Virus record (IMG/VR): IMGVR_UViG_3300034053_000011
Span: 1 to 56,168 of that record
Source of the DNA: a virus
Taxonomy: Duplodnaviria > Caudoviricetes
Direction: 5' to 3' (one strand)
Length of the DNA: 56,168 nucleotides
Numbering within the stretch: the stretch's first letter is position 1; each line of letters begins with the position of its first letter. A program made the translations under genes and the position numbers. Shown in pieces: positions 1 to 31,390 of the stretch. Below the pieces are notes generated by a model, which did no database searches, was not told where the DNA came from, and worked only from the letters and a program-made list of their open reading frames with translations.

Positions 1-127
1 ACCTATCTGCAGCGGCGGCGTATGCCTGCACGATCCTGATGAACAACAGCAACGATGCGACCTCTCGGGGGCTGGAAGTTGCTGGTGCAGCATCCTGTAC
101 GTTGAAAGGCGCCACGAAAAAATCATG
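1..127. repeat. Terminal direct repeat, left copy (circular-assembly overlap)
   Basis: Bases 1-127 are identical to 56042-56168, and a reading frame runs through the join. Confidence 0.95.
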
Positions 128-3100
128 GACATTGATTTCCGGGGCGCTTGCTGCCGGTGATACATCCTGCGTTGTGGATGATGCTACTGGCTGGCGCGTT
201 GGTGATCGGCTGGTATTCGCCACCACGAATTCATGGGCAGCGACATCGTTCAATGTCACATCCTCGGCGTATTCCGATCCATACCTGACCTGTACGGTAT
301 CCAGCACTACCGGGCTGGTGAAAGGTGCGCGCGTGCGCATGTCCAACATGCAGGCCAGTCTTAATACCTACTGGACGATTTACGATGTTCCTTCAAGCAC
401 GACGTTCCGAATCAATGTTGGCACCGGTTTTTCGCTGACTGACGGTATCGGCAATGCAACGCTGCAGCCGAAAATCGACGAGGTCACAATCGCCACGATC
501 ACGCCGGGTTCTGGTACGACGGCAACAATTACATGGTCGGGTGGTGTTGGTACTGGTGGTGGCGTTGCGTGGGCGCATGCGGACGATTGCCCGGTCGGTA
601 ATTTCACCCGCAACGTCACGATAGGGACGAGCAATCAGGCATATAAATCATTTGTGAATTACGCAACCGAATCCGGGTCTCCGACTCGGGTTGCGCGTGA
701 TGTGTGTTTTCAGAATATGGCCTCTGGCTACACGACATTCCCAAGCTATGCACTACGGTTGCATGGGACGGCGGACCAACTAGGGGGTCTATACAATTGC
801 GCGTTTTATTACAACGGGGTAGCTTCCGGACTGTACCAACTGCAAACAACGACTGGCACATTTGAGGTATCCACTAATGTAGGTGTCGGTTTTTCTGATG
901 TGAATACGTCGGTAGCGGCGCTCGAGTCAGCGCAGACCATTCTATCCACTGTAAGTTGGACAAACAATTGCGTGTTTGGGGGATTGGTAGGAGTAACCAG
1001 TCCGAATCCCTCTGATGTATTTTCCGGCAATCAGGCGTCTGGTTGCGCGTGGGGGGTAAATATTCCGCAGAACAACATCACATATGGCACTTACGATATT
1101 TGGAGTTGTGGTGGAGGGATGCGGGCAAGCTCATCAATACTGAGTTATGCCACTTTTCGCCAATCAACCATAGGCACAAAATTCTCGGCGGCGTGCGGCA
1201 CTGCGTTTACTGCGAGCGGTGGCCCGATACGTGCGACATTGATCGATTGTTCTGTGCAGGCCAGTAATCTATTCAGTGCCTCTGCCCTGGATTTCACCCG
1301 ATTGGAGATTATTAATAAAAACGTCGATCCTGCGGTACAGGAAATCTACACCCGTCACAGCAGTACGGTTCCGGCCATTCAGCGCAATACCGGGACGGTC
1401 AGCAGATCAACCTCATCCATCGAGATGACCTGTAATGCAACGCAGGCGATCACGCATGAATTTTATGTGTTGGCAAAAGCCGGTGAGACGATCAATCTCA
1501 AGGTATTGGTCAGGAAGTCAGGGACTCCTGCCTACGGTGCCAGCACGTTGCCTAGTGTGACGATCAGCGGCCTTGGTATTACGCCAGTCATTACGACAAT
1601 GGATGCAGGTACGGCGGCGGATACATGGGAAACACTGACTTGTACCGCAACCAACAGCGGATCGGCGGACGGGAATCTCACGGTCACACTTACCGCGCAA
1701 TCATCAACAGCGGGAGCTAAGGCGTTTTTCGCTGGTTGCCCGGTGGCGCCATTTGTCACGCGAGCACGGCATTACGGGTTCTTGTTCAACGAGACCAATC
1801 CCGTGGTATCGCCTGATCTGGTGATTTCAGCGAGTGAAGCAACTGCTGCCGCTTACACCGGCATAACAATTACGTGGGGCGCGTCGTCATCCACATCAGT
1901 GACCGGCAGCAACACGTTCCAGAAACTCTACGACTACCATCAGTCGCAGGCGGTGCTAAATGTCGGTTCTGCGCTGGCACTCACGGGCGCTGGTGTTGCT
2001 GGTTCTCCTGCGCTGTTCGCCGCTGGCAATGTCACAGTATCTGACGGTGCGGTGTTGAACGGCTCAGGCTCGATCAGCATGGGGGCTTATACATTGGCAA
2101 CCGAGTTTGCTGGCGGATCGAATTACACCTACACCGGCGGCACATTCAGTCAGGCCGCTACGGTGCCGTCATTCAGCGGCGGCACTGTGACCATCGGTGC
2201 TGCGGGGACTTACACATTCGGTGCAACGGATTCGATCATCATCATGACACCGACCGCACCGGGAACCTATGTCCTGAGCGGCGGAACTCTCTCCGGCACC
2301 ATCGATCTGCGCAATGCGTCAGGCAGTCATGCGATTACGGTGGAGCTTGCTGGTGGAGTGAGCTATACCACGGCAAACAATACCGGCGCGGCAATCACGG
2401 TGCAGACGCCACAGATTTACCAGTCGGTGACGATCAGCGGCGCTACGTCTGGTTCCCGTATTCAGATTTACGATACGACATCATCGACAGAACTCTACAA
2501 CGGCACTCCGACATTCCCGTACACATGGACGGATGGCAGTCCTGCGGCGGCAGATCGAGCGATTCGCCTGCGGGTATCGTATGTTTCTGGCGCAACGGCG
2601 AAAGAATTTATCGAAGGCAGCATCGGTACTTGTGGGCAGACGGATGAGACCGCCGCCATTTCGTATCTGGTGAATCAGACCAACGACACGACCTACAACA
2701 GCAATGCTATCGACGGGCCTGCGATCTACGCGACGAGTGGGATTACATTCACCGACGCATCACCTGACCGGGTGAATTGCAATATTGCTGGCGGCTCGGT
2801 GTCGTATCCAACAATCTATGCTTGCTTCGTGTATTGGAACTTCACGCAGACGGGTATTGCCAACGATTTCACCTACATTTCTGCGCCGGACACAGCAAAC
2901 TATTTGTTGAGTGGTATGAAGATTCGCAACACCTCTGCGACCGACCTGGTTGTCACTGGTGGATATGGGCGCGATGCGACGAGCGGGTTGTCTGCGGACA
3001 TTATTGATACAGCTGGCTCTACGGGGAACATCTTTCTTACTCCCGATCATGTGGTGCCGTATGCCACGGGGTCTGGTGTCACGGCACAGGACAAAGCAGA

Positions 3101-19936: not shown

Positions 19937-22900
19937 ATGGCAGAACTAGACTGGTCCCGGGCTATCCCCGCTGATAACGATTTTCGCGATGCGCGAGACA
20001 TCCAGATGGGGGTAGAAAAACCGAAGTCACTTGATTGGTCTGCTGCTATTGAAGCACCTGAAGTAGAACAAAAACCCTCCGGCCTCCTTGGTGTCGGAGA
20101 AGCCATCTGGACCGGGACAAAGAACCTGATCGAGATGGGCCGGGCTACCGGCAACGTCATCTCCGGTGACAACGCCGCCGTCGAGGCTGGCCGCGAGCGC
20201 AACCTCGCCAACGAAGCAAACTCCCCCCTCGAGAAGCGCCAGTTCATGGCCGACTACATGGCGCGCAACAAGCGCGACCGTGGCACCGATGGCGACGTCT
20301 CCATGCTCGATGCGATCGGTAACCTCGCGTCATCCGCGTGGAACAACAAGATGGGCTTCACCCAGGCGATGGCCGAGCAGGCGCCGAACGCCGTGCCCGT
20401 GCTCGCGATGGGTGCTGCCGGTGCGGCTGCTGGCGCTGCTACGCCAATTCCTGGCGGGGCCATCATCGGCGGCTTCCTCGGCATGGCCCTGGGCAACGCC
20501 GGCATCGAGATCGGCTCCAAGGCTATCGAGAAGGCTGAAGGCGGCCTGACCAATGAAGAATCCAGCGCTGCTCTAAGGGAAGGTTCCGTCAAGGGCACAG
20601 TGATTGCCGGCGTCGACCTGGCCACGCTCGGTATCGGTGGCAAGGCGATGAAGGCTATAGGCGGCACTGCCGTCAAGGCCGGCGCTATGGCAGAGGCCAA
20701 GGTGCTGATGGACGCCGGCGTCGACGTCACCAACCCGATGGCGATAGCTTCCCGGCTCGCTGCTGACAAGGCGCTCGCAGCGTCCGCCAAAGCCGCTGGA
20801 ACCACCGCGGCAAGGGATGCACTCACGCTCGGTCAGAAGGCCGGCATGGCGGCCACTGGCATGGGGCTGGAGACAGTCGGCGAGGGTGTCGGCGAATACT
20901 TCGGCGAGATGGCAGCCACCGGCAAGGGCAACATGGGCGATGCGGTCCTCGAGGCCTTCATGGGAGCCGGTCAGTCGTCTGTCGAGACCGCTTACAACTT
21001 CAACAAGGTCGGGCGCAACGAGCTCGACATGCGCAACATACTCAACGCCGGATCAACCGAAGAGGCGATCCAGCACGCGCGGAATGCACTGGCGCAGAAG
21101 ACGACGGCCGCCAACGTCACCGCCGCCACCGACTTTGAAGTCACTGGCGACTCCGTCATCAACGAGATGGCTGGCGGCCTGGATGCACTCCAGACCTTCA
21201 ACAACCAGACGATCAGCGAGCCTAATGCAGCGGCCGCCGTGGCTGATGCTGATCAGTTCGTACCCGGCGCCGTGCAACCGGTCCCGCTCGAATACCGCAA
21301 CCAGCAGATCATCAACGCCACGCCGGAGACACCACCGGGAATTACCCCGCCGCCGTATCAACGAGGCACTGGTGGGGCGATCAGCGATGCGTCGCTACCG
21401 ATCATAGGGCAGACGCCAGCAACGGCTCCTACGCCCGCTATTGAAGGCGCGCCCAAGGTCAGCATGTACGACCAATACTTGGCCATCCAAGCCAAGGTCG
21501 CCAAAGGTGCAACGCCTACTGCCTTCGAGGCAGCACTCCTCAAGAACCCACCTCCCTCCCCCGCCACACCCACGCTCGAGCTCCCAGCTGGCAAGCAGCA
21601 AGCCGGCGAGGGGCAGGCCAAGCTGATCCAGGAAGTTCAGCGCGCGCGGCAGATGGCGCGCTCCGCTCCGCAGCTTGAGCAGGACGCCGCCCAAGATGAG
21701 CTCGCACCGGCACCGGTCACCATGCAGACCACTCCGGTCCAGGCGCCGCAGCCGGTTAAGTCTGTACCAACCACCCAGACACAGCTCGAGCAGCAAGAGT
21801 TGGTGCCTCGCACCAGCGTCAAGGTCGGTGGCGTCAATGCCGACCTGATGTCGAATGAAGAGCTGCAGGCGATCGTCACGAACCCGAAGGCGAACAAGAA
21901 TACCCGCCGTGCTGCGCAAGAGGTTCTATCCACCCGCTTCACCCCCCAGCGCACGGACATCGCAGAGCTCGAGCGCCAACAATTCCCTGACGTAGGAGAG
22001 ACAACGAATGCCCCTCAAGCCACAGAAGCCCCGGTGCCCGCACTGCAAGAAGAAGCACAGCCCGAGCCGGGAGTGTCCCGCACAGTCGCAAAGCGCTCCG
22101 AAAACCTAGAGCGGATGCTCCGTGAGAATCCCGCAGAGGATCGCGGGATCATGGCCGGCGAGGTCGATATCAACTCGCTGGGCAGCGAGGTCAGCTCGCT
22201 GAAGACGAAGCGTATGGGCAAGCTCAAGGCCCGTGGCATCAAGGCGCTGATGGCCCTGTTCGGGCGCAAGGTGGTCTTCTTCGAGGCCAGCAAGGATACG
22301 GCGGAAGGCATCCACTCCGACAAGAACAATCGCACAATCTACGTCAATGTCGATTCAGAAGTCGATACCCTGGCGGTGGTCAATCACGAGTTCTCCCACT
22401 CGTTTGAGAAGGAGCACCCGGCAGAGTACGCCAAGGCCGTAGCCGCGACTGAAGCCCTGCTGCGTGCTGACGGTACCCGGGCGCTGAAGTATGCGACCTA
22501 CTACAACAAGCGCGACTGGATCGCTGATGGTGCCGTCAAAGATGAGAACGTCGGCGACCTGGCCCGGGAGCTGATCGGCGACATCACCGGCAACGAGGCC
22601 CGCACCGGTGAGTTCTGGGGCGATGTGTTCAACGAGGTGGCGCTACAGAACCCGACCGAGGCCCGGGGCATCATTACCCGTATCCGCGATGCGGTGGTCA
22701 AGTTCATTAACAAGGTGATCGCTGCCACACCGAAGGGTGGCTTCCAGCTCGAGGGTGTCGGCTTCACCCGCGAAGACCTGAAAGAGATCCGTGACCAGGT
22801 GGTGCAGATGGCCGCCAAGTCGATGGTCAAGGCCGAGCGTGTTCGCCTGGGCCTTGAGCAGGATACGGCGGCGGGGGATGGGGTGGTGCGGGAAGCGGCA

Positions 22901-25900
22901 AACCGCAAACAAAAAGTTGCCGTCGCCAAAGGGGCAAAGGCTGGCTTCTCTACGGACAACAAAGTCGGCGTGGCTGTCTCTGCGTCTTACAAGCCTGGCC
23001 GGAACTACGGCACCGTGGTTTATCCGGAGAACGGCGGCAATCTCGTTCGCTTGCATGAGCGGATGCTGGTCATCACCCGCTCCGCGGACTTCGATCGCTT
23101 GCTTGAATCGATCGGGCTCAAGAGCTTCGGCGCGCAGACCACGATCCGCGGGATGTGGGATCGCGAACCGGAATGGACCCAGGTGCTACGCCTGAAGCAA
23201 CTCAACGGCACACCGGCCACGTTCGAGCAGACCCGTGCCGTAGCCAACCTGCTTGGCTGGGCCACACAGCAGGATGCTGCCATCACCTCGATGGTGGTCG
23301 ATAAGCCGGTGGATGGCCAGTACAACATCCCGAGTCTGTACTTCGGCAAGGAAGACGGCACGCCGATGACGGCCGCCGAGATCGATACCGCACTGGCCGC
23401 CTTCGGCAAAGTAACGCCCGGGGCGTCGGTCACGCCAGACGGCAAAACAGTTAAGTTCCTATTCTTCCCGGATGAGAAGTCAAAGCTCAGTGAAACTGAC
23501 CAGCAAATTCAGTTCGGCAAAAATTTGCAGGCTGTTGCGGTTAGCGTTAATCTAAGCCCTGACTACCTGTTGGCATTTACTAACTCGTCTCTGGATGAGT
23601 TCAATAAGAGGACGAACGAAAATGAAAACCGCGGATATCTTGGCCGCAATGAAGGCTACTGGGGGAAGGCTGCTAAAGGACTCGGACCCAGAGCTATACA
23701 AGGCGGAATTGGCGGGCGGACCGTCGATGTCGTTCTCGTCCCGTACATCGCCGCCGTCAGAGCCGAAGGATTCGGATTCGACTACGACCTCTGGCAACAG
23801 CGAAACAAGGCAACCGCAGCAGAAGTAGCCGAGCTTCGCGAGAAGGTCGCTGCCTACGAACAGCAGAACAAGCACGGGCTAAAACCACGTCTGCGCGAAA
23901 CGATCGATATCTCCAATCTCCCGGAGGTGTCGATCGAGGCGCAGATCACCCAGAAAACGAACGAGGCCAACGCCGAGAATCAGCTCGGCATCCTCGACAA
24001 GCTCAAGCAACAATTCCCCAACGCCGTCGAATCCGCCCGTGAGTGGCTCACGATGGCGGCGCACGCCTTTGGCAGCAATGATGTTCCGGTGGCACCGCGC
24101 AACCTGATCAACCTGATGCAGGACAGCGGCGCCGGCATCCTCGAGCAGTTGCGTCAGCTCACCCCGGGGCAGATCAAGGACGCCACCTCTGGCTTCAACA
24201 ACGCGGCCGAGTTCCTCCAGCTTTACACCTCCGGCAAAGTGAAGGTCGAGACCACTGGCAAGCTGATGCTGTGGTCGTTCCTGTCACGCGGGGTCAGCCC
24301 GTACATCCAGGAGGCGATGTTCGTTGATTCCGTGCGTGGTGTCGAGCCGTTCATTCAACAGGCCGCGCGCGGAGAATTTGGTCCGGCAGAGCTGGCAAAT
24401 TACATCGAGTGGGCCGATGGTATTGCCAAGTCCAACGGCGCCGGAGCACCCGGCAATGCCACCAAGCACAACCTGAATGCGTTCGGCAAGAGCTTCTTGA
24501 TCGGGATGTCGCAGAAGGCAGCAAACGGCAAGACCAAACTGCAGCATTTGCATGACATGCTCTCCGACAAATCGATGACTGGCCGCGACATCCGCCGCGA
24601 ATTTGTCAGGATGTCCGAGGGTGTTGGCATCGACAACAAGGTGATGTCATTCACGCTGCTGGTGACTGGGCGCACCGACGTACTGGTGCTGGACCGTATC
24701 CAGATGCGCAATCTGTTCGACGACGGCAGCTTCGCTGGCTACAATCTGTACGACGGCACGCGCAACACCAAGCTGGTAACGGACGCCAAGGACAAAACCA
24801 AGCGGACCATTCACGAGGCTATCAGCCAGCGTGAAGGCGAGACTGACGAGGAGTTCGATAACCGCGTTGATCAAGCTATGCGCAACCTGGCCAAGCAGCT
24901 CAAGATCAAGCCGTCCGCGATCGAAGCGGAACGCGCCATCGAACCTGGCACCGGGTTGGCAAGCATGACCACGGGCGTCCGCGGCTTGATGCTCTACGAG
25001 TTCTTTGAAGACAAGTTGCTCAAGATTCTGCCCGATGTGTATCAGAAGCTAGGCCGCCCACAAGATGCGTCACCGGGGCGATACCACTGGGAATCCTGGG
25101 TGGTGGTGTCAGGTCAAGAGGCCTCTCACGGCACACTGGACTCGCTGCTCTACGAAGCCGAGGGGCAGGAGAATGCGTTTGCTGATGTGACCGTCAAGCA
25201 GGGCGAGTATTCGCAGAAGGACTACGGCGTGCGCTATGGCCGTGACGTCAAGGGCAATCCGTACTACCTCTACGAGAACTCGGCCGGTACCCAGTACAAG
25301 TTGACGCACGACGCCTGGCGCGCTTTGCTGAAGAGCATTGACCGGATCAAGGGTAGGGCTGCCGGGTTCCTGCTGTCTCGAGATGAGCAAGGAAATGCCA
25401 GAACGCAACCGTGGTATTTTGACTCCCGCATCGATCGCGCTAAGATTGACGCCGAACTTCAACAACTAGGAGAGCCGCATGACGGACAAGGAACAGGATC
25501 AGCCCGCCGATCCAATGCGCGGAGCAGTGAATATGATCGAACAGGCTCTGCGGCGGAAGGACGCCCAAGTTATGGTCGAGGTAGAGAAGGAGCGGTCCAG
25601 GCTACGGGAGTCCACTACTCCAAAGCCCAGCGAGGAGAGTTAAGCTCCCGGTTCTTCGGGACCGGGATGAAGGGCGAGGAAGGTGCGCGGATCTCGTATG
25701 CCAAGGACGAGCGGATCAAGAATCGCCTGTACTTCTACATCAACACCGGGCGCGGGGTCGTGCCAGAATCGGACGTTGGCGCCCACGCCCACACGGTAGA
25801 TCTGCAGAACCTCTACGACTTGGACTCCGATCCCCTGGAGCTCTACCCGCGTAGCGATCCAACCAAGGATCAGCGCGACCAGCCTCTCGCCGACGAGCGA

Positions 25901-28900
25901 ATGAACTCGTTCGAGAGCAAGGTTCTCGATGCAGGCTTTGACGGCTACCTCACTCGCGACTTCGGCACCGGCGGCGCCGTGGTCCTGCTCGGTGATCACT
26001 CGGTCCCAGTGCAATACGAGGGCTCCGGCGTCAAGCCCGACGCCCAGGCCTTTTCTGAGCCTGTCACCCTGCGTGGCTGGCGTGAGCTGCAGGACAAGGT
26101 GACCAAGAACAACAGCCTGCCCAACGGCAGTATGATGGGCGCTGACTGGAAGCGCATGATGCCCAAGCTCATGCCCGAGCTGGATGTCTCCCATCTGCCC
26201 GACGAGCGACGCTTCTACAAGGACCAGTTGGTCAAGAGGCCGGAGGCGCGGATGAGCAACCGCCGCGTCGTCGACGTCTTCAAGACCTTGGCAAAAGACG
26301 AGGAGGCGTTCAAGTATCCGGTTCAGACGTCCATGGACCTGGGCGAAGTGGTCAAGGGTATCGACCCGGCTTTCAAGGTGTATCCGGTTGGCAGCGATCA
26401 CTGGTCTGTTGATGAGGCTAAGGCCGACGAGGGGTGGATCATCGTTGCGCCTGACAAGAAGGATGGCTGGGTGTTCCGCAAAGGCAACGACGTCTGGATC
26501 AATGTAGCCTCATTCGGATCTGGGCAGAGCCGCGGGACGGTGGTCTATCAGGCGGTTGGCGACTGGGTCTACAACAACGGCTTCAAGTTCCTTGGCGACC
26601 CGGCGGGCATCTCCTACTTCGGCGCCACCCGGCGGATTGAGAACCTGATCAGCTCGGCGCTCAAGCACGGAACCACAGAACATCTGCGCCCCCACCCGGG
26701 GAACTTCGACCATGTGCCGCCGAATGACCTGGCAGACCACTCAGAAATCAAGTGGGAAGAGGGCGCGCATGATCAAAATTTGGAGAAACTGATCCTGGCG
26801 AGCTATGCTGCAGTTATCGATAGCTACCCGGAGATCAAAGATGTCCGCTTTATACCTGCAACCGGAAGGTTTGAACGAGCTGGAACTCCGCTTGTGGACG
26901 AAGATATTCAGCAGCTCATCGCCGACAACCCCGCCAGCGCTGGTCTTGGCAAGGTATTTGGAGTCTCATCGTTCAAGAGAAGCGTGCTCGTCGATACCGT
27001 TCTACGCGAAACGGGAGGCGAAGGAAGGGGTGGAATACTGGGCGAGCTGGAGCGTCAGCTACAATCCACCGGCTCCGTACCTGGTTTAGGCAAGGTTCTC
27101 TACAGCAATGCCCGCGCTCTACCCAACGACACCCCTGTTAACCGAACTCTCGACGGGGCCAAACTCCAGGCCCTACGTCGTGCTGCGGCTGATCTCGAGC
27201 GACCCAAGGATGGCGTCTACCTCCGCATCACCGAAGACGGTCGTGCCATCGCCACCGGACCCAAGGGCACTCGCATCCCCGAGACTTTCCGTCGTTTCGC
27301 TAGAGACAACGACTTAGCGTTCTTCGCCGAACGCGACATCGGCGTATCCATCTACTCGAAAGCACCGCAAACCACCAAGTCGGAGCCGATGTCCATCGAC
27401 TACCGCGAGAGCGGCGCGCTGTACTTCGGCGAGATGGGTGACGCTAAACTTGATAGAACTGAGCGGACGCGCTTCTCCTTCAAGCGCGTCGACACCAACT
27501 CACCTGAGTTCAAAAAATGGTTCTCAGGGAGCAAGGTGGTTGATGCGAATGGCAAGCCGTTACGGGTGTATCACGGGACAAGGCTGGATTCGCCTATCGA
27601 TCAATTTGATGGGTTGAATTATTCAGGTTGGTTCAGTTCCGCACCAGAAACAGCAAACACCTATGCTGGAGGATATAGTGGAGAGCAAATTGATGAAGGG
27701 TCAGTGTATCCGACGTATCTTGCCATTCGTAATCCGATTGATTTACGCAATCGTGGATTCGATCTGAATGACGATGCGGATATTCAGGGACTTATAGAGG
27801 CTATTCCAGAAGTGGATATGCGCACTTTCAAAACCCATGAAGGAGCATGGGAGGTTTGGGAAATCATCAATAGCCTTGATTTTAGAGAAGCGGCAGAGGC
27901 TGCAGGTTTTGATGGTCTTATCGCTCCGGAAAATAGAGTTACAACATACGCGGCATTCTTCCCCTCTCAAATCAAGTCCGCCATCAGCAACACCGGCGCC
28001 TTCTCCGACACCAATCCTGATATTCGGTATTCGACAAATCGCCTGATCGGCAACTCCGGCCGGCAATACACGCCGGAGCAGGAGGCGATGCACCAGCGTG
28101 TCGGTCGGGTGGTGGATGAGAAGACCATCCTCGAGCGGCTGAAGGATTACATCCAGAAGCGCTGGCGGCAGGGGATCTTCGATCAGTTCGCTCCGTTCTA
28201 CGGGACGCAGGCCTACACCTTGATGCGCTTGTCCAAGGGCTCCACGGGGGCGTTTGAGGCGTTTATGAAGCACGGCAAGCTATCACTGCGTGATGGCGCC
28301 TACGACGCTGACACCACCGGCGGTGTGATCGAGAATGTGTTTCATCCTCTTGGCAAGGAGACGACTGACTTCCTCTACTGGATAGCAGGCAACCGGGCCG
28401 AGCGGTTGGTCGCCGAGGGCAAGGAGCGCCTCTTTACCAATGCCGACATCCAGGCCGCAAAGAGCCTGGCTGATGGCCAGCTCGACTTCGATTACATCCT
28501 GCGCAACGGTACTGTAACGCGCAGCCGCAAGGCCGCCTACATGGACAGCCTGGTCAAGTTCAACGAATTTAACAAGAACGTGATGGACATGGCCGAGCAG
28601 TCAGGGCTGATCGATGGTGCAGCTCGCCACCTATGGGAGCACGAGTTCTACGTTCCGTTCTACAGGGTAATGGAGGACGAGAACACCCGGGCCATGGGGA
28701 TCAAGAAGGGTATTGTCAGGCAGGAGGCTTTCAAGAAGCTGAAGGGCGGCGAGGAACAGCTCGGTGACTTGCTGATGAACACCTTGTTGAACTGGCACCA
28801 CTTGGTTGATGCGGCATCGAAGAATCGCGCGGCCAAGGCGGCGCTCGAGACGGCGCAGCAGTTGGGTATCGCCAGTCCTGCGGTCACCGGCGAGACGAAG

Positions 28901-30529
28901 ACGGTATGGTTCATGGACAACGGGCAGAAGGTTGACTACAAGGTCGATGACCCTGCTGTACTGGAAGCCATCAACGGGCTGCAGTACGCTGGCCTACAGG
29001 GCCCGCTGTGGTCCATCCTGACGGCACCAAAGCATTGGCTCACCGTGGGCGTCACGGCGTCGCCGTTCTTCAAGGTGCGCAACCTGATCCGTGACTCGGT
29101 GCAGGCGATCGCCACTTCGGATCTCAGCTACAACATCGCGAACAATGTGATTGAAGGCGTCAAGCTCACCGCGCGCGATCGGCAGGAATACGTCTCGGCC
29201 CTGGCCGGCGGTGGCCTGATCCGCTTCGGCACCATGCTCGAGGGCAACGAGGCCAAGCGCACCCGGCAACTGATCCGCAAGGGTGCCAAAGACGCTGCCA
29301 TACTGGACAGCCAGGGTGCCTGGACGAAGTTCTACACCGCGGCTTTGGAGCCGGCGATAGAGGCCTACAACGAGCTCGGCAACCGCGGCGAAGAGATCAA
29401 CCGCATGTCGCTCTATAACCAGCTCATCAAGCAAGGCAAGGATCACGCGACGGCCAGCTTGATGGCTCGCGACCTGATGGATTTCAGTCTGCAAGGTTCG
29501 TTCGAGACGATCCGCATCCTGTCCCAGATCGTGCCGTTCTTCAACGCTCGGATGCAGGGCATGTATAAGCTCGGCCGAGCAACGAAGGAGAACCGAGCTC
29601 ACATGGCGACGGTGATCTTCACTGCCGCCCTTGCCAGTCTGGCGCTGATGGGGATGGCCGCCGGTGACGAGGACAAGTGGAAGAAGTGGAAGAAGCGCGA
29701 GGAGTGGGACAAGGCCAGCAACTGGTGGTTCGAGTTCGGCGGCGTGCAGTACCGCATCCCGAAGCCGTTCGAGTTGGGCACCGTGTCGCACATCATGGAA
29801 CGCACCGTCGAGGGTATGTTCGACAAGGAGCGTGATGCGGGCAAACGCACGGCCAAGGCTCTGATGGATGCCGCGATGAATCAGCTCTCAATGAACCCGG
29901 TGCCGCAGGCGTTCAAGCCGATCATCGACCTGTACGCCAACTACGACAGCTTCACCAAGCGCCCGATCGAAACGATGTCGATGCAGCGCCTGGACAAGGA
30001 CCAGCGTTACACGGCGCAGACCTCGATGCCGGCGCGCGCACTATCATCGACGGTGGGCGGTCTGTCACCGGTGCAATATGACCATCTGGTCAGGGCCTAC
30101 TTCGGTTGGCTCGGGGCGCTGTCTGTTGGTACGGCAGACATCGTGGCGCGGTCAGTCAATGATGAGCCGACGAAGCCGGCACTGGACTACTGGAAGTTCG
30201 CCACCGGTGGGCTCCTGCAAGAGGACCAGATTGCCAGTCGCTACACCTCGATGATGTACGACCAGGCGGCCGAGCTCGAGCAGGCGCACGCGACCTACAA
30301 CAAGCTGCGCAAGGACGGCAAACTGGACGAGGCCAAGGAGTACCGTGAGGACAACAAGGACAAGCTCAGCGCCTACCGTTCAGTCGAGAATGTCAAGAAG
30401 CAGGTTGCCACGATCAGCGAACGTATCCGCATGATCGAGCGCAGCAACATTCACCCGGCTGAGAAGCGGATCAAGATTCGAGAGTTGAAGCAGCGCCAGA
30501 GTGACATCGCCTCGAAGTTGAGTCAGTAA
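19937..30529 (+). CDS. Giant polyvalent (ejection/anti-host) protein, 3530 aa: HExxH metallopeptidase-like, HhH-GPD glycosylase-like, two ADP-ribosyltransferase-like, GNAT-like and C-terminal LPD38 domains
   Basis: NHEFSH (22385); GIDNKVMSF...DVLVLDRIQMR (24626-24709); VHYS...RLYFY...GFDGY (25610-25950); FKKWF.GSKVVD.NGKPL.VYHGT...QIKSA..N.G.F....DIRYS (27500-28033); W.....RIPKPFELG (LPD38). Confidence 0.85.
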   Translation: MAELDWSRAIPADNDFRDARDIQMGVEKPKSLDWSAAIEAPEVEQKPSGLLGVGEAIWTGTKNLIEMGRATGNVISGDNAAVEAGRERNLANEANSPLEKRQFMADYMARNKRDRGTDGDVSMLDAIGNLASSAWNNKMGFTQAMAEQAPNAVPVLAMGAAGAAAGAATPIPGGAIIGGFLGMALGNAGIEIGSKAIEKAEGGLTNEESSAALREGSVKGTVIAGVDLATLGIGGKAMKAIGGTAVKAGAMAEAKVLMDAGVDVTNPMAIASRLAADKALAASAKAAGTTAARDALTLGQKAGMAATGMGLETVGEGVGEYFGEMAATGKGNMGDAVLEAFMGAGQSSVETAYNFNKVGRNELDMRNILNAGSTEEAIQHARNALAQKTTAANVTAATDFEVTGDSVINEMAGGLDALQTFNNQTISEPNAAAAVADADQFVPGAVQPVPLEYRNQQIINATPETPPGITPPPYQRGTGGAISDASLPIIGQTPATAPTPAIEGAPKVSMYDQYLAIQAKVAKGATPTAFEAALLKNPPPSPATPTLELPAGKQQAGEGQAKLIQEVQRARQMARSAPQLEQDAAQDELAPAPVTMQTTPVQAPQPVKSVPTTQTQLEQQELVPRTSVKVGGVNADLMSNEELQAIVTNPKANKNTRRAAQEVLSTRFTPQRTDIAELERQQFPDVGETTNAPQATEAPVPALQEEAQPEPGVSRTVAKRSENLERMLRENPAEDRGIMAGEVDINSLGSEVSSLKTKRMGKLKARGIKALMALFGRKVVFFEASKDTAEGIHSDKNNRTIYVNVDSEVDTLAVVNHEFSHSFEKEHPAEYAKAVAATEALLRADGTRALKYATYYNKRDWIADGAVKDENVGDLARELIGDITGNEARTGEFWGDVFNEVALQNPTEARGIITRIRDAVVKFINKVIAATPKGGFQLEGVGFTREDLKEIRDQVVQMAAKSMVKAERVRLGLEQDTAAGDGVVREAANRKQKVAVAKGAKAGFSTDNKVGVAVSASYKPGRNYGTVVYPENGGNLVRLHERMLVITRSADFDRLLESIGLKSFGAQTTIRGMWDREPEWTQVLRLKQLNGTPATFEQTRAVANLLGWATQQDAAITSMVVDKPVDGQYNIPSLYFGKEDGTPMTAAEIDTALAAFGKVTPGASVTPDGKTVKFLFFPDEKSKLSETDQQIQFGKNLQAVAVSVNLSPDYLLAFTNSSLDEFNKRTNENENRGYLGRNEGYWGKAAKGLGPRAIQGGIGGRTVDVVLVPYIAAVRAEGFGFDYDLWQQRNKATAAEVAELREKVAAYEQQNKHGLKPRLRETIDISNLPEVSIEAQITQKTNEANAENQLGILDKLKQQFPNAVESAREWLTMAAHAFGSNDVPVAPRNLINLMQDSGAGILEQLRQLTPGQIKDATSGFNNAAEFLQLYTSGKVKVETTGKLMLWSFLSRGVSPYIQEAMFVDSVRGVEPFIQQAARGEFGPAELANYIEWADGIAKSNGAGAPGNATKHNLNAFGKSFLIGMSQKAANGKTKLQHLHDMLSDKSMTGRDIRREFVRMSEGVGIDNKVMSFTLLVTGRTDVLVLDRIQMRNLFDDGSFAGYNLYDGTRNTKLVTDAKDKTKRTIHEAISQREGETDEEFDNRVDQAMRNLAKQLKIKPSAIEAERAIEPGTGLASMTTGVRGLMLYEFFEDKLLKILPDVYQKLGRPQDASPGRYHWESWVVVSGQEASHGTLDSLLYEAEGQENAFADVTVKQGEYSQKDYGVRYGRDVKGNPYYLYENSAGTQYKLTHDAWRALLKSIDRIKGRAAGFLLSRDEQGNARTQPWYFDSRIDRAKIDAELQQLGEPHDGQGTGSARRSNARSSEYDRTGSAAEGRPSYGRGREGAVQATGVHYSKAQRGELSSRFFGTGMKGEEGARISYAKDERIKNRLYFYINTGRGVVPESDVGAHAHTVDLQNLYDLDSDPLELYPRSDPTKDQRDQPLADERMNSFESKVLDAGFDGYLTRDFGTGGAVVLLGDHSVPVQYEGSGVKPDAQAFSEPVTLRGWRELQDKVTKNNSLPNGSMMGADWKRMMPKLMPELDVSHLPDERRFYKDQLVKRPEARMSNRRVVDVFKTLAKDEEAFKYPVQTSMDLGEVVKGIDPAFKVYPVGSDHWSVDEAKADEGWIIVAPDKKDGWVFRKGNDVWINVASFGSGQSRGTVVYQAVGDWVYNNGFKFLGDPAGISYFGATRRIENLISSALKHGTTEHLRPHPGNFDHVPPNDLADHSEIKWEEGAHDQNLEKLILASYAAVIDSYPEIKDVRFIPATGRFERAGTPLVDEDIQQLIADNPASAGLGKVFGVSSFKRSVLVDTVLRETGGEGRGGILGELERQLQSTGSVPGLGKVLYSNARALPNDTPVNRTLDGAKLQALRRAAADLERPKDGVYLRITEDGRAIATGPKGTRIPETFRRFARDNDLAFFAERDIGVSIYSKAPQTTKSEPMSIDYRESGALYFGEMGDAKLDRTERTRFSFKRVDTNSPEFKKWFSGSKVVDANGKPLRVYHGTRLDSPIDQFDGLNYSGWFSSAPETANTYAGGYSGEQIDEGSVYPTYLAIRNPIDLRNRGFDLNDDADIQGLIEAIPEVDMRTFKTHEGAWEVWEIINSLDFREAAEAAGFDGLIAPENRVTTYAAFFPSQIKSAISNTGAFSDTNPDIRYSTNRLIGNSGRQYTPEQEAMHQRVGRVVDEKTILERLKDYIQKRWRQGIFDQFAPFYGTQAYTLMRLSKGSTGAFEAFMKHGKLSLRDGAYDADTTGGVIENVFHPLGKETTDFLYWIAGNRAERLVAEGKERLFTNADIQAAKSLADGQLDFDYILRNGTVTRSRKAAYMDSLVKFNEFNKNVMDMAEQSGLIDGAARHLWEHEFYVPFYRVMEDENTRAMGIKKGIVRQEAFKKLKGGEEQLGDLLMNTLLNWHHLVDAASKNRAAKAALETAQQLGIASPAVTGETKTVWFMDNGQKVDYKVDDPAVLEAINGLQYAGLQGPLWSILTAPKHWLTVGVTASPFFKVRNLIRDSVQAIATSDLSYNIANNVIEGVKLTARDRQEYVSALAGGGLIRFGTMLEGNEAKRTRQLIRKGAKDAAILDSQGAWTKFYTAALEPAIEAYNELGNRGEEINRMSLYNQLIKQGKDHATASLMARDLMDFSLQGSFETIRILSQIVPFFNARMQGMYKLGRATKENRAHMATVIFTAALASLALMGMAAGDEDKWKKWKKREEWDKASNWWFEFGGVQYRIPKPFELGTVSHIMERTVEGMFDKERDAGKRTAKALMDAAMNQLSMNPVPQAFKPIIDLYANYDSFTKRPIETMSMQRLDKDQRYTAQTSMPARALSSTVGGLSPVQYDHLVRAYFGWLGALSVGTADIVARSVNDEPTKPALDYWKFATGGLLQEDQIASRYTSMMYDQAAELEQAHATYNKLRKDGKLDEAKEYREDNKDKLSAYRSVENVKKQVATISERIRMIERSNIHPAEKRIKIRELKQRQSDIASKLSQ
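22008..22109 (+). CDS. Nested +1-frame ORF A, 33 aa, with a CxxC-x3-H-x5-C motif
   Basis: AGGAG RBS at 21994-21998, then MPLKPQKPRCPHCKKKHSPSRECPAQSQSAPKT*. Confidence 0.45.
   Translation: MPLKPQKPRCPHCKKKHSPSRECPAQSQSAPKT
23622..23828 (+). CDS. Nested +1-frame ORF B, 68 aa
   Basis: AAGAGG RBS, then MKTADILAAMKATGGRLLKDSDPELYKAELAGG...; possible promoter TTGCAG-17-TAATCT at 23525-23553. Confidence 0.5.
   Translation: MKTADILAAMKATGGRLLKDSDPELYKAELAGGPSMSFSSRTSPPSEPKDSDSTTTSGNSETRQPQQK
25419..25446 (+). promoter_or_regulatory. Internal sigma70-like promoter for nested ORF C
   Basis: TTGACT-16-TAAGAT, ending 32 nt before the ATG at 25479. Confidence 0.5.
25479..25643 (+). CDS. Nested +1-frame ORF C, 54 aa, helical and charged
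   Basis: AGGAG RBS, then MTDKEQDQPADPMRGAVNMIEQALRRKDAQVMVEVEKERSRLRESTTPKPSEES*. Confidence 0.55.
   Translation: MTDKEQDQPADPMRGAVNMIEQALRRKDAQVMVEVEKERSRLRESTTPKPSEES
26841..27089 (+). CDS. Nested +1-frame ORF D, 82 aa
   Basis: GGAG RBS, then MSALYLQPEGLNELELRLWTKIF...VLARYLESH...EGVEYWASW... Confidence 0.5.
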   Translation: MSALYLQPEGLNELELRLWTKIFSSSSPTTPPALVLARYLESHRSREACSSIPFYAKREAKEGVEYWASWSVSYNPPAPYLV

Positions 30530-31131: not shown

Positions 31132-31390
31132 TCTCCAACCACTTGTCCAGGTAATGCTTGGCTTTCTCCACATCCTGCCGCTTGTTTCCCTTGTCACGGG
31201 CTAGGTACTTCACTGCGTTCATCAGCAGGTAGTCTGGGAACGACTCAGGGAACCATGACTGCATCGCATCCCAAGGTTGCACATCAAGACGGGTGTAGTG
31301 ATCGCCACCAATCATCGTCTTGGATACTTTATCTTCCAATAGGTGATTGTCTGGATCAATGTAGTCGTTTGGCATTGACGCGAAACTCAT
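31109..31390 (-). CDS. DUF3310-family protein
   Basis: GGDHY...QPWD...NAVKYL.R...DVEKAKHYL motif. Confidence 0.8.

What the first reader, a model, noticed from the sequence alone, without database searches (positions are those of the whole stretch)
23900..25420. HhH-GPD (Ogg/EndoIII-like) DNA glycosylase domain inside a virion-delivered protein
Seen: GVGIDNKVMSFTLLVTGRTDVLVLDRIQMRNL, with Lys1568 and Asp1586 18 residues apart, and a later SPGRYHWESW. Known: bifunctional HhH-GPD glycosylases such as EndoIII and archaeal Ogg use a Lys/Asp pair with this spacing. Inference: an injected base-excision enzyme that could attack host or competitor DNA (e.g. modified bases) or repair phage DNA.
Basis: partly seen in the sequence, partly recalled or inferred. 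Interest (0 to 1): 0.7.

Follow-up and report, generated by a model that had tools for sequence, protein, structure and literature searches.

The report
Ogg2-like DNA glycosylase domain in phage ejection protein
A 3530-residue phage protein that sits among the virion's internal proteins carries a previously unannotated domain with the fold and the conserved lysine-aspartate pair of DNA base-excision enzymes, so this phage probably delivers a DNA glycosylase into the cell together with its genome.

Summary
The quoted strings lie at aa 1562-1593 and 1712-1721 of a 3530-aa ORF (window 19937-30529, +), and K1568 and D1586 are 18 residues apart.

An AlphaFold2 model of aa 1330-1845 is confident (pLDDT 92.3, pTM 0.91). 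It matches Ogg2-type 8-oxoguanine glycosylases over their whole length: Z 15.5-16.4, rmsd 2.9-3.5 A, 203-208 residues aligned to chains of 206-214. In a Foldseek-independent search of 48,161 chains, ranks 1-22 are HhH-type DNA glycosylases or the related enzyme QNG1.

K1568 is the second residue of the second HhH helix and D1586 caps the next helix. K is kept in 132 of 132 homologues and D in 131 of 132.

Sequence models do not see the relationship. Pfam, NCBIfam and PDB profile searches give nothing, and hhalign against Ogg2 scores no better than shuffled controls. The Ogg2 determinant for 8-oxoG, a C-terminal lysine, is absent.

The domain is a mobile module of phage polyvalent or internal-virion proteins. 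It was confirmed in 365 of 500 candidate IMG/VR stretches, in 5 MAG contigs among 185,579 species genomes, and in none of 50,697 deposited phage records.

I read it as a new, insertion-bearing HhH-GPD family, probably a glycosylase/AP lyase delivered with the phage DNA. Its substrate is unknown.

The parts
19937..30529 (+). Giant polyvalent protein gene (3530 aa), last large gene of the structural module
   Evidence: ORF list and translation. Pfam hits: LPD37, ART-PolyVal, LPD38. Upstream lie portal, major head protein and tail fibre genes.
23939..25426 (+). Conserved domain (aa 1335-1830): HhH-GPD core plus family-specific N- and C-terminal extensions
   Evidence: Conservation across 132 aligned representatives. 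AF2 model of aa 1330-1845 has pLDDT 92.3. There are 378 cluster representatives at E<=1e-3.
24107..25129 (+). HhH-GPD glycosylase core (aa 1391-1731), the part that aligns structurally to whole Ogg2 chains
   Evidence: VIA-align: model residues 62/63..402 align to 3n0u residues -1/0..207, Z 16.3-16.4, rmsd 2.9-3.1 A, 206-207 aligned.
24581..24718 (+). HhH-GPD motif proper (aa 1549-1594): helix, hairpin, helix, loop, helix
   Evidence: DSSP of the model gives H220-230, H238-247 and H258-265. Invariant residues are R1553, G1564, K1568, S1571, G1578 and R1587 (132 of 132 each); near-invariant are R1554 (130 of 132), D1581 and D1586 (131 of 132 each).
24638..24640 (+). Lys1568 codon: predicted Schiff-base nucleophile, second residue of the second HhH helix
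   Evidence: Kept in 132 of 132. It pairs with the Ogg2 motif lysine (G-Y-K-E-A-S) in the best hhalign path, but that alignment is not statistically significant.
24692..24694 (+). Asp1586 codon: predicted catalytic aspartate, N-cap of the helix that follows the loop
   Evidence: Kept in 131 of 132. In the truncated model, which ends 11 residues after this Asp, most of the 31 listed human/mouse OGG1 rows end at chain residue 279 or 280, i.e. Asp268+11/12; the remaining 8 end at 283-284.
24719..24958 (+). Inserted alpha/beta subdomain (aa 1595-1674) between the Asp helix and the C-terminal helices. Its middle (about aa 1611-1662) is variable or absent in most homologues
   Evidence: DSSP gives E280-287, E294-301, H308-326 and E333-339. 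The conservation profile shows a gap-rich stretch here. There are weak matches to small ferredoxin-like folds at Z 4.3-5.2.
25070..25099 (+). SPGRYHWESW (aa 1712-1721), on helix H384-396. H1717 and W1721 are invariant and W1718 nearly so; these are candidate residues lining the base pocket
   Evidence: H1717 132 of 132, W1718 131 of 132, W1721 132 of 132. W1721 lies within one residue of where MjaOgg Trp198 would fall if the last helix aligns without gaps. This is inference ranges and numbering.
22385..22399 (+). HEFSH (aa 817-821), an HExxH motif: possible zincin-like self-processing peptidase
   Evidence: Found by motif only. No Pfam match in aa 1-1000. Iyer et al. 2017 predict processing of polyvalent proteins by zincin-like peptidases (passages).
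26276..27010 (+). LPD37 domain (aa 2114-2358)
   Evidence: Pfam PF18853, E 3.4e-53.
27542..28003 (+). ART-PolyVal ADP-ribosyltransferase domain (aa 2536-2689)
   Evidence: Pfam PF18760, E 1.4e-18.
27992..30520 (+). C-terminal module of about 840 aa (aa 2686-3528) shared by podophage polyvalent proteins; includes LPD38 (aa 3250-3413, nt 29684-30175)
   Evidence: phrog_18222, E 7e-189. PF18857, E 3.6e-34. tblastn of aa 2900-3530 finds 47 phage records.

Best explanation
Residues about 1335-1830 of the 3530-aa polyvalent protein form a divergent HhH-GPD DNA glycosylase domain. Its core (aa 1391-1731) superposes on complete Ogg2 enzymes. It differs from them in three ways: an inserted alpha/beta subdomain of about 80 residues after the catalytic-Asp helix, longer helices, and extra N- and C-terminal elements.

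Shown here: the fold; the placement of the invariant Lys1568 at the start of the second HhH helix; and the placement of the nearly invariant Asp1586 at the N-cap of the next helix.

Inferred mechanism: the HhH hairpin binds the DNA backbone without sequence preference. A base is flipped into a pocket lined by family-invariant residues (F1572 at Lys+4, and H1717, W1718, W1721, Q1727, H1731). The Asp-Lys dyad then cleaves the N-glycosidic bond through a Schiff base and nicks the strand by beta-elimination, as in bifunctional glycosylase/AP lyases.

Inferred delivery: the protein is packaged in the capsid as an internal or ejection protein, enters the cell with the DNA, and may be cut into pieces by its own HExxH peptidase. 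The domain would therefore act on DNA in the first minutes of infection.

The substrate base is unknown, and the 8-oxoG determinants of Ogg2 are not conserved. Repair of the incoming genome and attack on host or competitor DNA are both open.
For: Fold. The AF2 model of aa 1330-1845 has pLDDT 92.3 and pTM 0.91. In VIA-align the top four entries are all Ogg2: 3n0u Z 16.4, 3knt 16.3, 3fhf 15.5, 3fhg 15.5, with 203-208 residues aligned to chains of 206-214 at 2.9-3.5 A. The top 38 listed entries are DNA glycosylases of this fold, apart from the queuine-salvage enzyme QNG1 and one unnamed Pyrococcus protein. In the unbiased search of 48,161 chains, ranks 1-22 are HhH-type glycosylases or QNG1; rank 1 has Z 16.3 and rank 23 falls to Z 5.3. 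Foldseek ranks the same Ogg2 chains first, though only at E 0.04-0.17.

Catalytic positions. DSSP gives helix 220-230, a hairpin, helix 238-247 (K = model residue 239), a loop, then helix 258-265 (D = 257). A separately predicted fragment has the same layout. That fragment ends 11 residues after the Asp. The 31 listed human/mouse OGG1 rows end at chain residue 279 (21 rows), 280 (2 rows) or 283-284 (8 rows); 279 equals Asp268+11. Its Ogg2 rows end at 162, against an expected 157-158. The best hhalign path pairs K1568 and D1586 with the Ogg2 motif Lys and Asp.

Conservation. K 132 of 132, D 131 of 132, S1571 132 of 132, F1572 131 of 132, G1578 132 of 132, R1587 132 of 132.

Delivery. The gene closes the structural module. 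It carries LPD37, ART-PolyVal and LPD38; Iyer et al. 2017 describe polyvalent proteins as predicted to be injected along with the DNA (passages). In a T7-like IMG/VR contig the domain sits in a 784-aa protein between genes matching 'internal virion protein' PHROGs.

Other. The nearest ESM Atlas cluster is a viral 'putative HhH-GPD domain-containing protein' cluster, score 0.91.
Against: No sequence model recognises the domain. Pfam PF00730 and PF22175 give no hit for it at E<=10. Only 1 of 46 family members touches PF22175, at E 0.025, which is below the family cut-off. NCBIfam gives nothing. PDB phmmer and profile searches give nothing relevant.

hhalign against 27 Ogg2 sequences gives E 0.17-0.24. 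Its score of 16.0 is matched or exceeded by the reversed control (16.7) and by 7 of 30 column-shuffled controls. The Lys/Asp register therefore rests on structure and topology, not on significant sequence similarity.

I had no model coordinates, so K-D proximity and pocket geometry were not measured. The Ogg2 fragment rows end 4-5 residues from the expected position.

A shared fold does not prove activity, and inactivated members of this fold are known (END nucleases, PMC12191111). Virion packaging is inferred from synteny only; there are no proteomic data, and no cultured phage in the 50,697-record collection carries the domain.
Confidence: 0.62

Rival explanations
1. The domain has the glycosylase fold but is not an enzyme. 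It would serve only to bind DNA, or to sense unusual bases or abasic sites. Possible roles are holding the leading end of the genome during ejection or guiding other domains of the polyvalent protein, as in the inactivated EndoIII sensor domains of END nucleases.
For: HhH motifs bind the DNA backbone without sequence preference (review PMC3397491, passages). Catalytically dead members of the fold used as sensors are described (PMC12191111, passages). No activity has been shown here, and sequence models for active families do not match.
Against: The inactive examples are described as lacking the catalytic residues. Here Lys is kept in 132 of 132 and Asp in 131 of 132 representatives at 35-71% identity, together with a set of further invariant polar and aromatic residues (E1459, H1539, H1717, W1721, H1731). 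That pattern is what an active site predicts.
Confidence: 0.15
2. The domain is an N-glycosidase acting on a free nucleotide or nucleoside rather than on DNA, in the way QNG1/DUF2419 works in queuine salvage. Its target could be a nucleotide signal or a modified nucleotide pool of the host.
For: QNG1 structures are among the matches: 7ugk Z 9.8 with 262 aligned, 7u07 Z 8.9. Iyer et al. suggest that polyvalent proteins carry enzymes aimed at nucleotide signals (PMC7824862, passage).
Against: Ogg2 DNA glycosylases match far better (Z 16.3-16.4 against 9.8) and over their whole length. The HhH hairpin and its conserved basic residues (R1553 132 of 132, R1554 130 of 132) are retained.
Confidence: 0.08
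3. The motif ...TGRTDVLVLDRIQ... belongs to the palm of an N4/T7-like virion RNA polymerase (T/DxxGR plus motif A). This was my first guess, given the size of the protein and the N4-like capsid relatives.
For: The protein is about as long as I recall the N4 virion RNA polymerase to be. Major-head-protein relatives include a phage described as N4-derived. One homologue of the domain (P0139) also carries a Pfam RNA_pol domain elsewhere in the chain.
Against: No RNA_pol Pfam hit in this protein at E<=1. No PDB sequence hit for aa 1022-2188. The region folds confidently as an all-alpha HhH-GPD domain, and no polymerase ranks above Z 5.3.
Confidence: 0.01
4. The K...D spacing is a chance resemblance in an otherwise unrelated helical domain.
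For: Sequence-profile comparison with Ogg2 is not better than shuffled controls.
Against: Whole Ogg2 chains are covered at Z about 16. There is a clean separation from unrelated folds: rank 22 has Z 6.5 and is still a glycosylase, and rank 23 has Z 5.3. The tool's own caution is that about Z 13 can occur for generic helical bundles, and this match exceeds that. The two residues also fall on the exact topological positions.
Confidence: 0.02

Closest known systems
Ogg2 family 8-oxoguanine DNA glycosylase/AP lyases (MjaOgg 3FHF/3KNT, SsoOgg 3FHG, Thermotoga Tm1821 3N0U; Pfam PF22175 Ogg-HhH)
   Same: Best structural match: Z 15.5-16.4 with 203-208 residues aligned, which is nearly the whole enzyme. 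Both have the two-lobed all-alpha fold and the HhH hairpin. Lys and Asp are 18 apart, as in MjaOgg K129/D147. Ser at Lys+3, Gly at Lys+10, Leu at Lys+17 and a basic residue after the Asp are shared with the 27 actinobacterial Ogg2 sequences. Neither has an Fe-S cluster.
   Different: There is no significant sequence similarity. The new domain has an insertion of about 80 residues after the Asp helix, longer helices, and about 55 N-terminal and 100 C-terminal extra residues. The chain does not end with the conserved C-terminal lysine that lets Ogg2 tell 8-oxoG from G; an invariant His1731 lies there instead. Phe replaces His133 at Lys+4. It is embedded in a 3530-aa phage protein, whereas Ogg2 is a free-standing repair enzyme of about 207 aa.
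Endonuclease III / Nth, OGG1, MutY, MagIII, AlkA, ROS1 (other HhH-GPD superfamily glycosylases; Pfam PF00730)
   Same: Same superfamily fold (Z 6.5-11.1). The Lys-Asp pairing is as in the bifunctional members: hOGG1 K249/D268 and EndoIII K120/D138 (recalled).
   Different: No PF00730 match. No cysteines at all, so no 4Fe-4S cluster as in EndoIII and MutY. The N-terminal beta domain of OGG1 is absent.
Phage polyvalent proteins (Iyer, Burroughs, Anand, de Souza, Aravind 2017)
   Same: A very large multidomain protein in a late or structural gene context with LPD37, ART-PolyVal and LPD38. Homologues combine the domain with LPD22, InPase, RadC, ddrB-ParB and RNA_pol in varying order.
   Different: A DNA glycosylase or HhH-GPD domain is not mentioned in the main text of that paper. 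A word search gave 'glycosylase' 0, 'base excision' 0, and 'HhH' once in another context. I did not see its supplementary files.
T7-type ejection proteins gp14/gp15/gp16
   Same: Same genomic position: in contig L045 the domain-bearing gene lies between genes matching internal-virion-protein PHROGs. Other family members carry SLT or lysozyme domains, as I recall T7 gp16 does.
   Different: No DNA glycosylase domain is known to me in T7 gp14-16 (recalled). The enzymatic cargo here is aimed at DNA rather than peptidoglycan.
Host-side glycosylase-fold defence proteins (END nucleases with inactivated EndoIII domains; Brig1 glycosylase)
   Same: Use of a DNA-glycosylase module in phage-host conflict (PMC12191111, passages).
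   Different: Those are host-encoded. The END domains are reported to lack catalytic residues, and Brig1 is reported as structurally dissimilar to them. Here the module is phage-encoded, probably injected, and keeps the Lys-Asp dyad.

Membership tests
HhH-GPD DNA glycosylase superfamily | Two-lobed all-alpha fold with a six-helix barrel domain carrying the HhH | tested here: met
   VIA-align Z 16.3-16.4 to 3n0u with 206-207 of 208-209 residues aligned. Ranks 1-22 of 48,161 chains are glycosylases of this fold or QNG1.
HhH-GPD DNA glycosylase superfamily | Helix-hairpin-helix, then a Gly/Pro-rich loop, then an invariant Asp at the start of the next helix | tested here: met
   DSSP gives H220-230, hairpin, H238-247, a 10-residue loop with invariant G1578, and D1586 as N-cap of H258-265. 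The loop has Gly but no Pro.
HhH-GPD DNA glycosylase superfamily | Match to the Pfam sequence model PF00730 | tested here: not met
   No hit at E<=10 for the domain, none in the whole phage genome, and 0 of 46 family members.
Bifunctional glycosylase/AP lyase subclass | Nucleophilic Lys at the N-terminus of the second HhH helix, about 18-19 residues before the Asp | tested here: met
   K1568 is the second residue of H238-247 and lies 18 residues before D1586; it is kept in 132 of 132. Equivalence to Ogg2/OGG1 Lys rests on topology, range ends and a non-significant hhalign register.
Bifunctional glycosylase/AP lyase subclass | Base excision and beta-lyase activity with a Schiff-base intermediate | not testable with these tools
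   Needs biochemistry.
Ogg2 family (PF22175 Ogg-HhH) | Match to the family sequence model | tested here: not met
   1 of 46 members at E 0.025, none over the cut-off. hhalign E 0.17-0.24, no better than controls.
Ogg2 family (PF22175 Ogg-HhH) | Strictly conserved C-terminal lysine whose carboxylate reads N7-H of 8-oxoG | tested here: not met
   The structural alignment to Ogg2 ends at model residue 402 (H1731) and the chain continues for about 1800 more residues. The feature is as described in PMC3397491.
Ogg2 family (PF22175 Ogg-HhH) | His133/Trp198 sandwich around the flipped base (MjaOgg numbering) | tested here: inconclusive
   Phe1572 (131 of 132) sits at Lys+4 where MjaOgg has His133. 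W1718 and W1721 lie near the Trp198-equivalent position. No residue-level structural alignment was available.
Endonuclease III / MutY | C-terminal 4Fe-4S cluster ligated by four cysteines | tested here: not met
   0 Cys in aa 1290-1890.
Phage-type polyvalent protein (Iyer et al. 2017) | Several unrelated domains in one very large polypeptide, encoded among virion genes, with LPD/ART-PolyVal modules | tested here: met
   LPD37, ART-PolyVal and LPD38 above Pfam cut-offs. Structural-module context. LPD38 is listed as phage-only in PMC5512222.
Phage-type polyvalent protein (Iyer et al. 2017) | Physical presence in the virion and injection into the host | not testable with these tools
   Supported only by synteny.
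N4/T7-like single-subunit RNA polymerase | Match to PF00940 or to solved N4 mini-vRNAP/T7 RNAP sequences | tested here: not met
   No Pfam hit at E<=1 in the whole protein. No PDB sequence hit for aa 1022-2188 at E<=1.

The most novel reading that the evidence does not exclude
The injected glycosylase/AP lyase is an offensive or counter-defensive weapon rather than a repair enzyme. In this reading it excises a normal or epigenetically marked base from host DNA, or from the hypermodified DNA of competing phages. That would wreck the host chromosome or erase the marks that protect the host from its own restriction systems. Alternatively, it uses its Schiff-base chemistry to attach itself covalently to DNA as a pilot protein. 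It would be the phage-side counterpart of the host glycosylase and END-nuclease defences.
Probability: 0.2. Interest if true: 0.85.

Novelty: new variant of a known kind. Interest (0 to 1): 0.62.

Why it matters
DNA glycosylases are known as cellular repair enzymes and, recently, as host antiphage defences. I found no description of a glycosylase-fold module carried inside a virion and delivered with the genome. Two literature searches returned nothing relevant, and word searches of the polyvalent-protein paper found no mention.

The family is large. There are 378 clusters at 50% identity, and 365 of 500 candidate IMG/VR stretches were confirmed. It is almost confined to uncultured viral sequence: 5 MAG contigs among 185,579 species genomes. 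Every source name seen for it is either absent or 'hypothetical protein'.

If active, it adds DNA base excision to the repertoire of proteins that phages inject. It would also provide a new HhH-GPD enzyme whose base pocket differs from the known ones, and a testable case of either pre-emptive genome repair or DNA-directed attack at the moment of infection.

Tried and rejected
1. RNA polymerase reading. The protein's size and the TGR...LDR motif suggested an N4-like virion RNA polymerase. I rejected this: no PF00940 hit, no PDB sequence hit, and the fold is HhH-GPD.

2. Sequence-level detection of the superfamily. All of these failed: Pfam at E<=10; NCBIfam; PDB phmmer and a 46-sequence profile (the five profile hits at E 2-9 were coiled-coil or low-complexity noise); and hhalign against single E. 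coli EndoIII (E 0.14, wrong register upstream of the insertion).

3. hhalign against 27 Ogg2 sequences collected from actinobacterial genomes. The expected K/K and D/D register came out, but with E 0.17-0.24. The score of 16.0 was reached by the reversed control (16.7) and by 7 of 30 shuffles. I do not count this as evidence of homology.

4. Residue mapping by truncation. I folded a fragment ending 11 residues after the Asp. Of the 31 human/mouse OGG1 rows, 21 end at chain residue 279 as expected, 2 at 280 and 8 at 283-284. The Ogg2 rows end 4-5 residues later than expected. The mapping is therefore approximate.

5. Named phage relatives. tblastn of aa 1122-2021 against 50,697 phage records found 2 records. 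Both match only aa 1879-2021, which is downstream of the domain.

6. Papers with the original Ogg2 structures (PMC3085930, PMC2758660) are not held. I took residue numbers from PMC5069365 and PMC3397491 instead.

7. A literature search for virion proteomics of phage PTXU04, which shares the C-terminal module, returned nothing useful.

8. Earlier notes of this scan: none for this genome or sequence.

9. Hints to the substrate from the rest of the genome. I found a dCTP-deaminase-like gene, a methyltransferase-like PHROG and a pentapeptide-repeat protein, but no recognisable hypermodification pathway. No conclusion on the substrate follows.
Full report
**What is there**

The window is a complete viral record of 56,168 bp with direct terminal repeats. 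Its largest gene, 19937..30529 on the + strand, encodes 3530 aa. GVGIDNKVMSFTLLVTGRTDVLVLDRIQMRNL is at aa 1562-1593, with K1568 and D1586 18 residues apart. SPGRYHWESW is at aa 1712-1721.

**Context**

The gene closes a podovirus-like structural module. Upstream lie the portal (4291-6579), the major head protein (7688-8737), tail proteins, a tail fibre (13067-14644) and a GNAT acetyltransferase (17347-17739). Replication genes lie on the minus strand, and the terminase genes are near the right end.

Pfam recognises only the C-terminal third of the giant protein: LPD37 (aa 2114-2358), ART-PolyVal (2536-2689) and LPD38 (3250-3413). PHROGs recognise a C-terminal module of about 840 aa. This module is shared with giant proteins of Achromobacter, Vibrio, Escherichia, Bacillus and Pelagibacter podophages.

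These features define a phage-type 'polyvalent protein'. Iyer et al. [quoted passage not shown]

Nothing in aa 1-2100 matched Pfam. PF00730 (HhH-GPD) did not match even at E<=10.

**My first hypothesis was different**

From the size and the TGR...LDR motif I expected the palm of an N4-like virion RNA polymerase. This failed. There is no RNA_pol Pfam hit and no PDB sequence hit for aa 1022-2188.

**The family**

A full HMMER scan of 1.84 billion cluster representatives with aa 1290-1890 found 378 proteins at E<=1e-3, of which 285 were at E<=1e-30. Of the best 150 listed, 99 are longer than 1200 aa. The shorter hits include complete 752-806-aa ORFs as well as gene fragments.

I aligned the 132 of those 150 that cover most of the query. 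The other 18 were dropped for partial coverage. The conserved block spans about aa 1335-1830, with a variable stretch at about aa 1611-1662.

Residue conservation in these 132 sequences, which are 35-71% identical to the query:

| Residue | Kept in |
|---|---|
| K1568 | 132 of 132 |
| D1586 | 131 of 132 |
| S1450, E1459, H1539, R1553, S1571, G1578, R1587, E1688, E1691, H1717, W1721, H1731 | 132 of 132 each |
| F1572, D1581, W1718, Q1727 | 131 of 132 each |

The domain contains no cysteine.

**Fold**

I built a 46-sequence alignment (A1). AlphaFold2 gave a confident model of aa 1330-1845 (pLDDT 92.3, pTM 0.91).

- Foldseek against the PDB had no hit at E<=0.001. Its first four rows were nevertheless all Ogg2-type 8-oxoguanine glycosylases (3n0u, 3knt, 3fhf; E 0.04-0.17, probability 0.97-1.00).
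- VIA-align on Foldseek's 722 best chains gave four Ogg2 entries on top: 3n0u Z 16.4 (rmsd 2.9 A, 206 of 208 residues), 3knt Z 16.3, 3fhf Z 15.5 and 3fhg Z 15.5. All map to model residues 63/71..402.
- Below them came D. radiodurans EndoIII-3 (Z 11.1), human/mouse OGG1 (about 10-10.9), MagIII (9.9), QNG1/DUF2419 (9.8), ROS1 (9.7), EndoIII (9.2), MutY/MUTYH (7.4-8.2) and AGOG (6.0-6.7).
- The first 38 entries all have this fold.
- The Foldseek-independent search of 48,161 representative chains gave the same picture. Rank 1 was 3n0u at Z 16.3. Ranks 1-22 were all HhH-type glycosylases or QNG1. Rank 23 fell to Z 5.3 for an unrelated protein.

The tool warns that generic helical bundles can reach about Z 13. 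This match exceeds that, covers entire target chains, and stands 5 Z units above the next family.

**Are K1568 and D1586 the catalytic pair?**

I had no access to coordinates, so I could not measure distances. Three indirect tests agree.

(a) Topology. DSSP on the model gives helix 220-230, a hairpin, helix 238-247, a loop, then helix 258-265. K is model residue 239, the second residue of the second HhH helix. D is residue 257, the N-cap of the following helix. This is the arrangement that defines the motif: an HhH followed by a Gly/Pro-rich stretch and a conserved Asp (PMC3397491, passages).

(b) Truncation. I folded aa 1392-1597 alone (pLDDT 91.5; K = 177, D = 195, last residue 206) and read the ends of the structural alignments.
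- Of the 31 listed human/mouse OGG1 rows, 21 end at chain residue 279, 2 at 280 and 8 at 283-284.
- Residue 279 is Asp268+11, the same offset as in the fragment (numbering from PMC3397491).
- The four Ogg2 rows end at 162, whereas Asp147/146+11 predicts 157-158 (numbering from PMC5069365). That is a discrepancy of 4-5 residues in a low-confidence tail.

(c) Profile alignment. I collected 27 Ogg2 genes through PF22175 from 301 actinobacterial genomes, of which 30 had a match. The best hhalign path between the two families is the HhH-GPD motif. It pairs K1568 with the Lys of G-Y-K-E-A-S and D1586 with the Asp of I-L-D-[RK]-H. It also shares Ser at Lys+3, Gly at Lys+10 and Leu at Lys+17.

This alignment is not significant. 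E is 0.17-0.24. The score of 16.0 is reached by the reversed control (16.7) and by 7 of 30 column-shuffled controls. Only 1 of 46 family members touches PF22175, at E 0.025. The relationship is therefore visible in structure, not in sequence statistics.

**How it differs from Ogg2**

- The core is interrupted after the Asp helix by an alpha/beta subdomain of about 80 residues (aa 1595-1674). This subdomain resembles small ferredoxin-like folds only weakly, at Z 4.3-5.2.
- Helices are longer, and there are about 55 extra residues before the core and about 100 after it.
- Alignments to EndoIII-type enzymes extend to model residue about 492-495. The long helix 462-483 may therefore still belong to the fold.
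- Ogg2 enzymes end in a strictly conserved lysine whose carboxylate distinguishes 8-oxoG from G (PMC3397491). Here the structural alignment ends at the invariant His1731 and the chain goes on.
- MjaOgg sandwiches the lesion between His133 (Lys+4) and Trp198. This family has Phe1572 at Lys+4, and invariant Trp residues (1718, 1721) near the Trp198-equivalent position. The Trp equivalence is inference.

Specificity for 8-oxoG is therefore not supported, and the substrate is unknown.

**Distribution and architecture**

The domain is essentially viral.

| Collection | Result |
|---|---|
| IMG/VR viral contigs | 365 of 500 candidate stretches confirmed |
| Genomes of 185,579 species | 5 of 87 candidates confirmed, all on MAG contigs |
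| Deposited phage records (50,697) | 0; the two tblastn hits cover only aa 1879-2021 |

BFVD holds two clear structural homologues, both labelled 'Uncharacterized protein'. Of 15 cluster members looked up, 4 carry a name, and all four are 'hypothetical protein'. The ESM Atlas's nearest cluster is a set of 51 viral proteins of about 227 aa, auto-named 'putative HhH-GPD domain-containing protein'. PF22175 is found on 27% of its members, the score is 0.91, and only 141 of 256 features are shared, so this is a lead only.

I scanned 13 long homologues with Pfam:

| Co-occurring domain | Homologues (of 13) |
|---|---|
| ART-PolyVal | 7 |
| LPD38 | 6 |
| LPD22 | 4 |
| InPase | 2 |
| RadC | 1 |
| ddrB-ParB | 1 |
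| T7-like RNA_pol | 1 |
| LPD23 | 1 |
| Phage_L5_gp82 | 1 |
| No Pfam domain at all | 2 |

The domain lies before ART-PolyVal in some homologues and after it in others. That is the behaviour of an independent, shuffled module.

In 79 of the 80 IMG/VR loci fetched, the motif was found with K and with D at +18. This count is partly circular, because the scan patterns contained the motif. The carrying ORFs range from 672 to 4228 aa.

In one T7-like contig (L045) the gene order is:
1. tail protein
2. internal virion protein (phrog_418)
3. a 555-aa protein
4. a 784-aa protein carrying this domain
5. internal virion protein (phrog_6651)
6. tail fibre

This places the domain exactly among the ejection-protein genes. 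It is independent synteny support for delivery with the virion. There is no proteomic evidence.

**Mechanism proposed**

Shown here: an HhH-GPD fold with a conserved Lys/Asp pair in the canonical positions, inside a polyvalent protein encoded among virion genes.

Inferred from established knowledge of bifunctional HhH-GPD enzymes (review PMC3397491; abstract of PMC13490550): the hairpin binds the DNA backbone, a base is flipped out, and the Asp-Lys dyad cleaves the glycosidic bond through a Schiff base and can nick the strand by beta-elimination. From recall, monofunctional members such as MutY and AlkA lack this Lys. Its invariance therefore argues for lyase-competent chemistry.

Inferred from context: the protein is packaged, ejected with the DNA and possibly self-processed. 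An HExxH motif lies at aa 817-821, seen by motif only.

Open question: what the enzyme acts on. It could start repair of UV- or oxidation-damaged phage DNA as it enters. Alternatively, it could attack host or competitor DNA. The rest of the genome offers no decisive hint. It holds a dCTP-deaminase-like gene just below the NCBIfam cut-off, a methyltransferase-like PHROG and a pentapeptide-repeat protein.

**Rivals**

- A non-catalytic DNA-binding or sensing module, as in END nucleases, is possible. Those are reported to have lost the catalytic residues (PMC12191111), whereas here the residues are kept.
- A QNG1-like nucleotide glycosidase is a weaker structural match (Z 9.8 against 16.4).
- The RNA polymerase reading and the chance-motif reading are excluded by the fold.

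**Novelty and verdict**

The fold and the chemistry are known. Three things appear new:
- a large, sequence-divergent, insertion-bearing HhH-GPD family that Pfam and NCBIfam do not cover;
- its confinement to uncultured phages;
- its placement in injected polyvalent or internal-virion proteins.

I found no description of this in print. Searches with 'HhH-GPD' + 'bacteriophage' + 'virion' and with 'DNA glycosylase' / 'polyvalent protein' / 'ejection proteins' / 'internal virion protein' returned nothing relevant. The main text of Iyer et al. 2017 contains neither 'glycosylase' nor 'base excision'. I did not see its supplements, which list all 131 domains, and they could bear on this claim.

I rate this a new variant of a known kind, with interest 0.62. 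Activity, substrate and packaging remain to be shown.

Noticed in passing
window 22385-22399 (aa 817-821 of the giant protein): An HExxH motif (HEFSH, followed by EKEH) in a region with no Pfam match. It could be the zincin-like self-processing peptidase that Iyer et al. predict for polyvalent proteins.
   Followed up: no
window 27542-28003 (aa 2536-2689): An ART-PolyVal ADP-ribosyltransferase domain in the same polypeptide (Pfam E 1.4e-18). It is a second predicted enzymatic cargo, probably aimed at host proteins.
   Followed up: partly
window 25571-25999 (aa 1879-2021): A separate conserved stretch just downstream of the glycosylase domain. It is the only part of aa 1122-2021 with tblastn hits in deposited phages: Phage zth2-2 and Limnohabitans phage DC33, about 43-44% identity. 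Function unknown; no Pfam match.
   Followed up: no
window 28634-30526 (aa 2900-3530): The C-terminal LPD38-containing module is shared with giant proteins of 47 phage records. Their annotations disagree: 'putative portal', 'N-6 adenine-specific DNA methylase', 'DarB-like antirestriction', 'large polyvalent protein' and 'hypothetical protein'. A hydrophobic segment (aa 3221-3244) precedes LPD38.
   Followed up: partly
window 43065-43820 (-): A 251-aa pentapeptide-repeat protein (Pfam Pentapeptide, E 1.7e-83) among the replication genes. It could be a DNA mimic, but this was not examined.
   Followed up: no
window 31387-31923 (-): A dCTP-deaminase-like gene (Pfam DCD E 1.9e-29; NCBIfam dCTP_deam 89.5 bits, just under the 92.8 cut-off). 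It might bear on the phage's nucleotide pool or DNA composition.
   Followed up: no
window 39-3221 (+): A 1060-aa ORF at the left end with no match in Pfam, PHROGs, NCBIfam or PDB sequences. No RNA polymerase gene was recognised anywhere in this complete genome.
   Followed up: partly
window 17347-17739 (+): A GNAT acetyltransferase gene inside the structural module, two genes upstream of the giant gene. Iyer et al. note GNAT domains among injected host-modifying functions.
   Followed up: no
protein P0139 (3437 aa, metagenomic homologue): This homologue combines the glycosylase-like domain (about aa 1983 onward) with a T7-like RNA_pol Pfam domain (aa 1368-1684) and LPD38. In it, the module travels together with a virion RNA polymerase.
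   Followed up: no
L045 4710-7064 (+) and neighbours: In a T7-like IMG/VR contig the domain is in a stand-alone 784-aa protein flanked by genes matching internal-virion-protein PHROGs. About a dozen further fetched loci hold similar 752-806-aa ORFs. The giant fusion is therefore split in some lineages.
   Followed up: partly
window 7688-8737 (+): The major head protein's nearest named relatives are Pseudoalteromonas phage vB_Pun_Y3 (37%; described as N4-derived 'Poorviridae'), Stenotrophomonas StenR_269, Xanthomonas DES1 and Pseudomonas Rollin. The best hit is an uncultured Caudoviricetes record (55%).
   Followed up: partly
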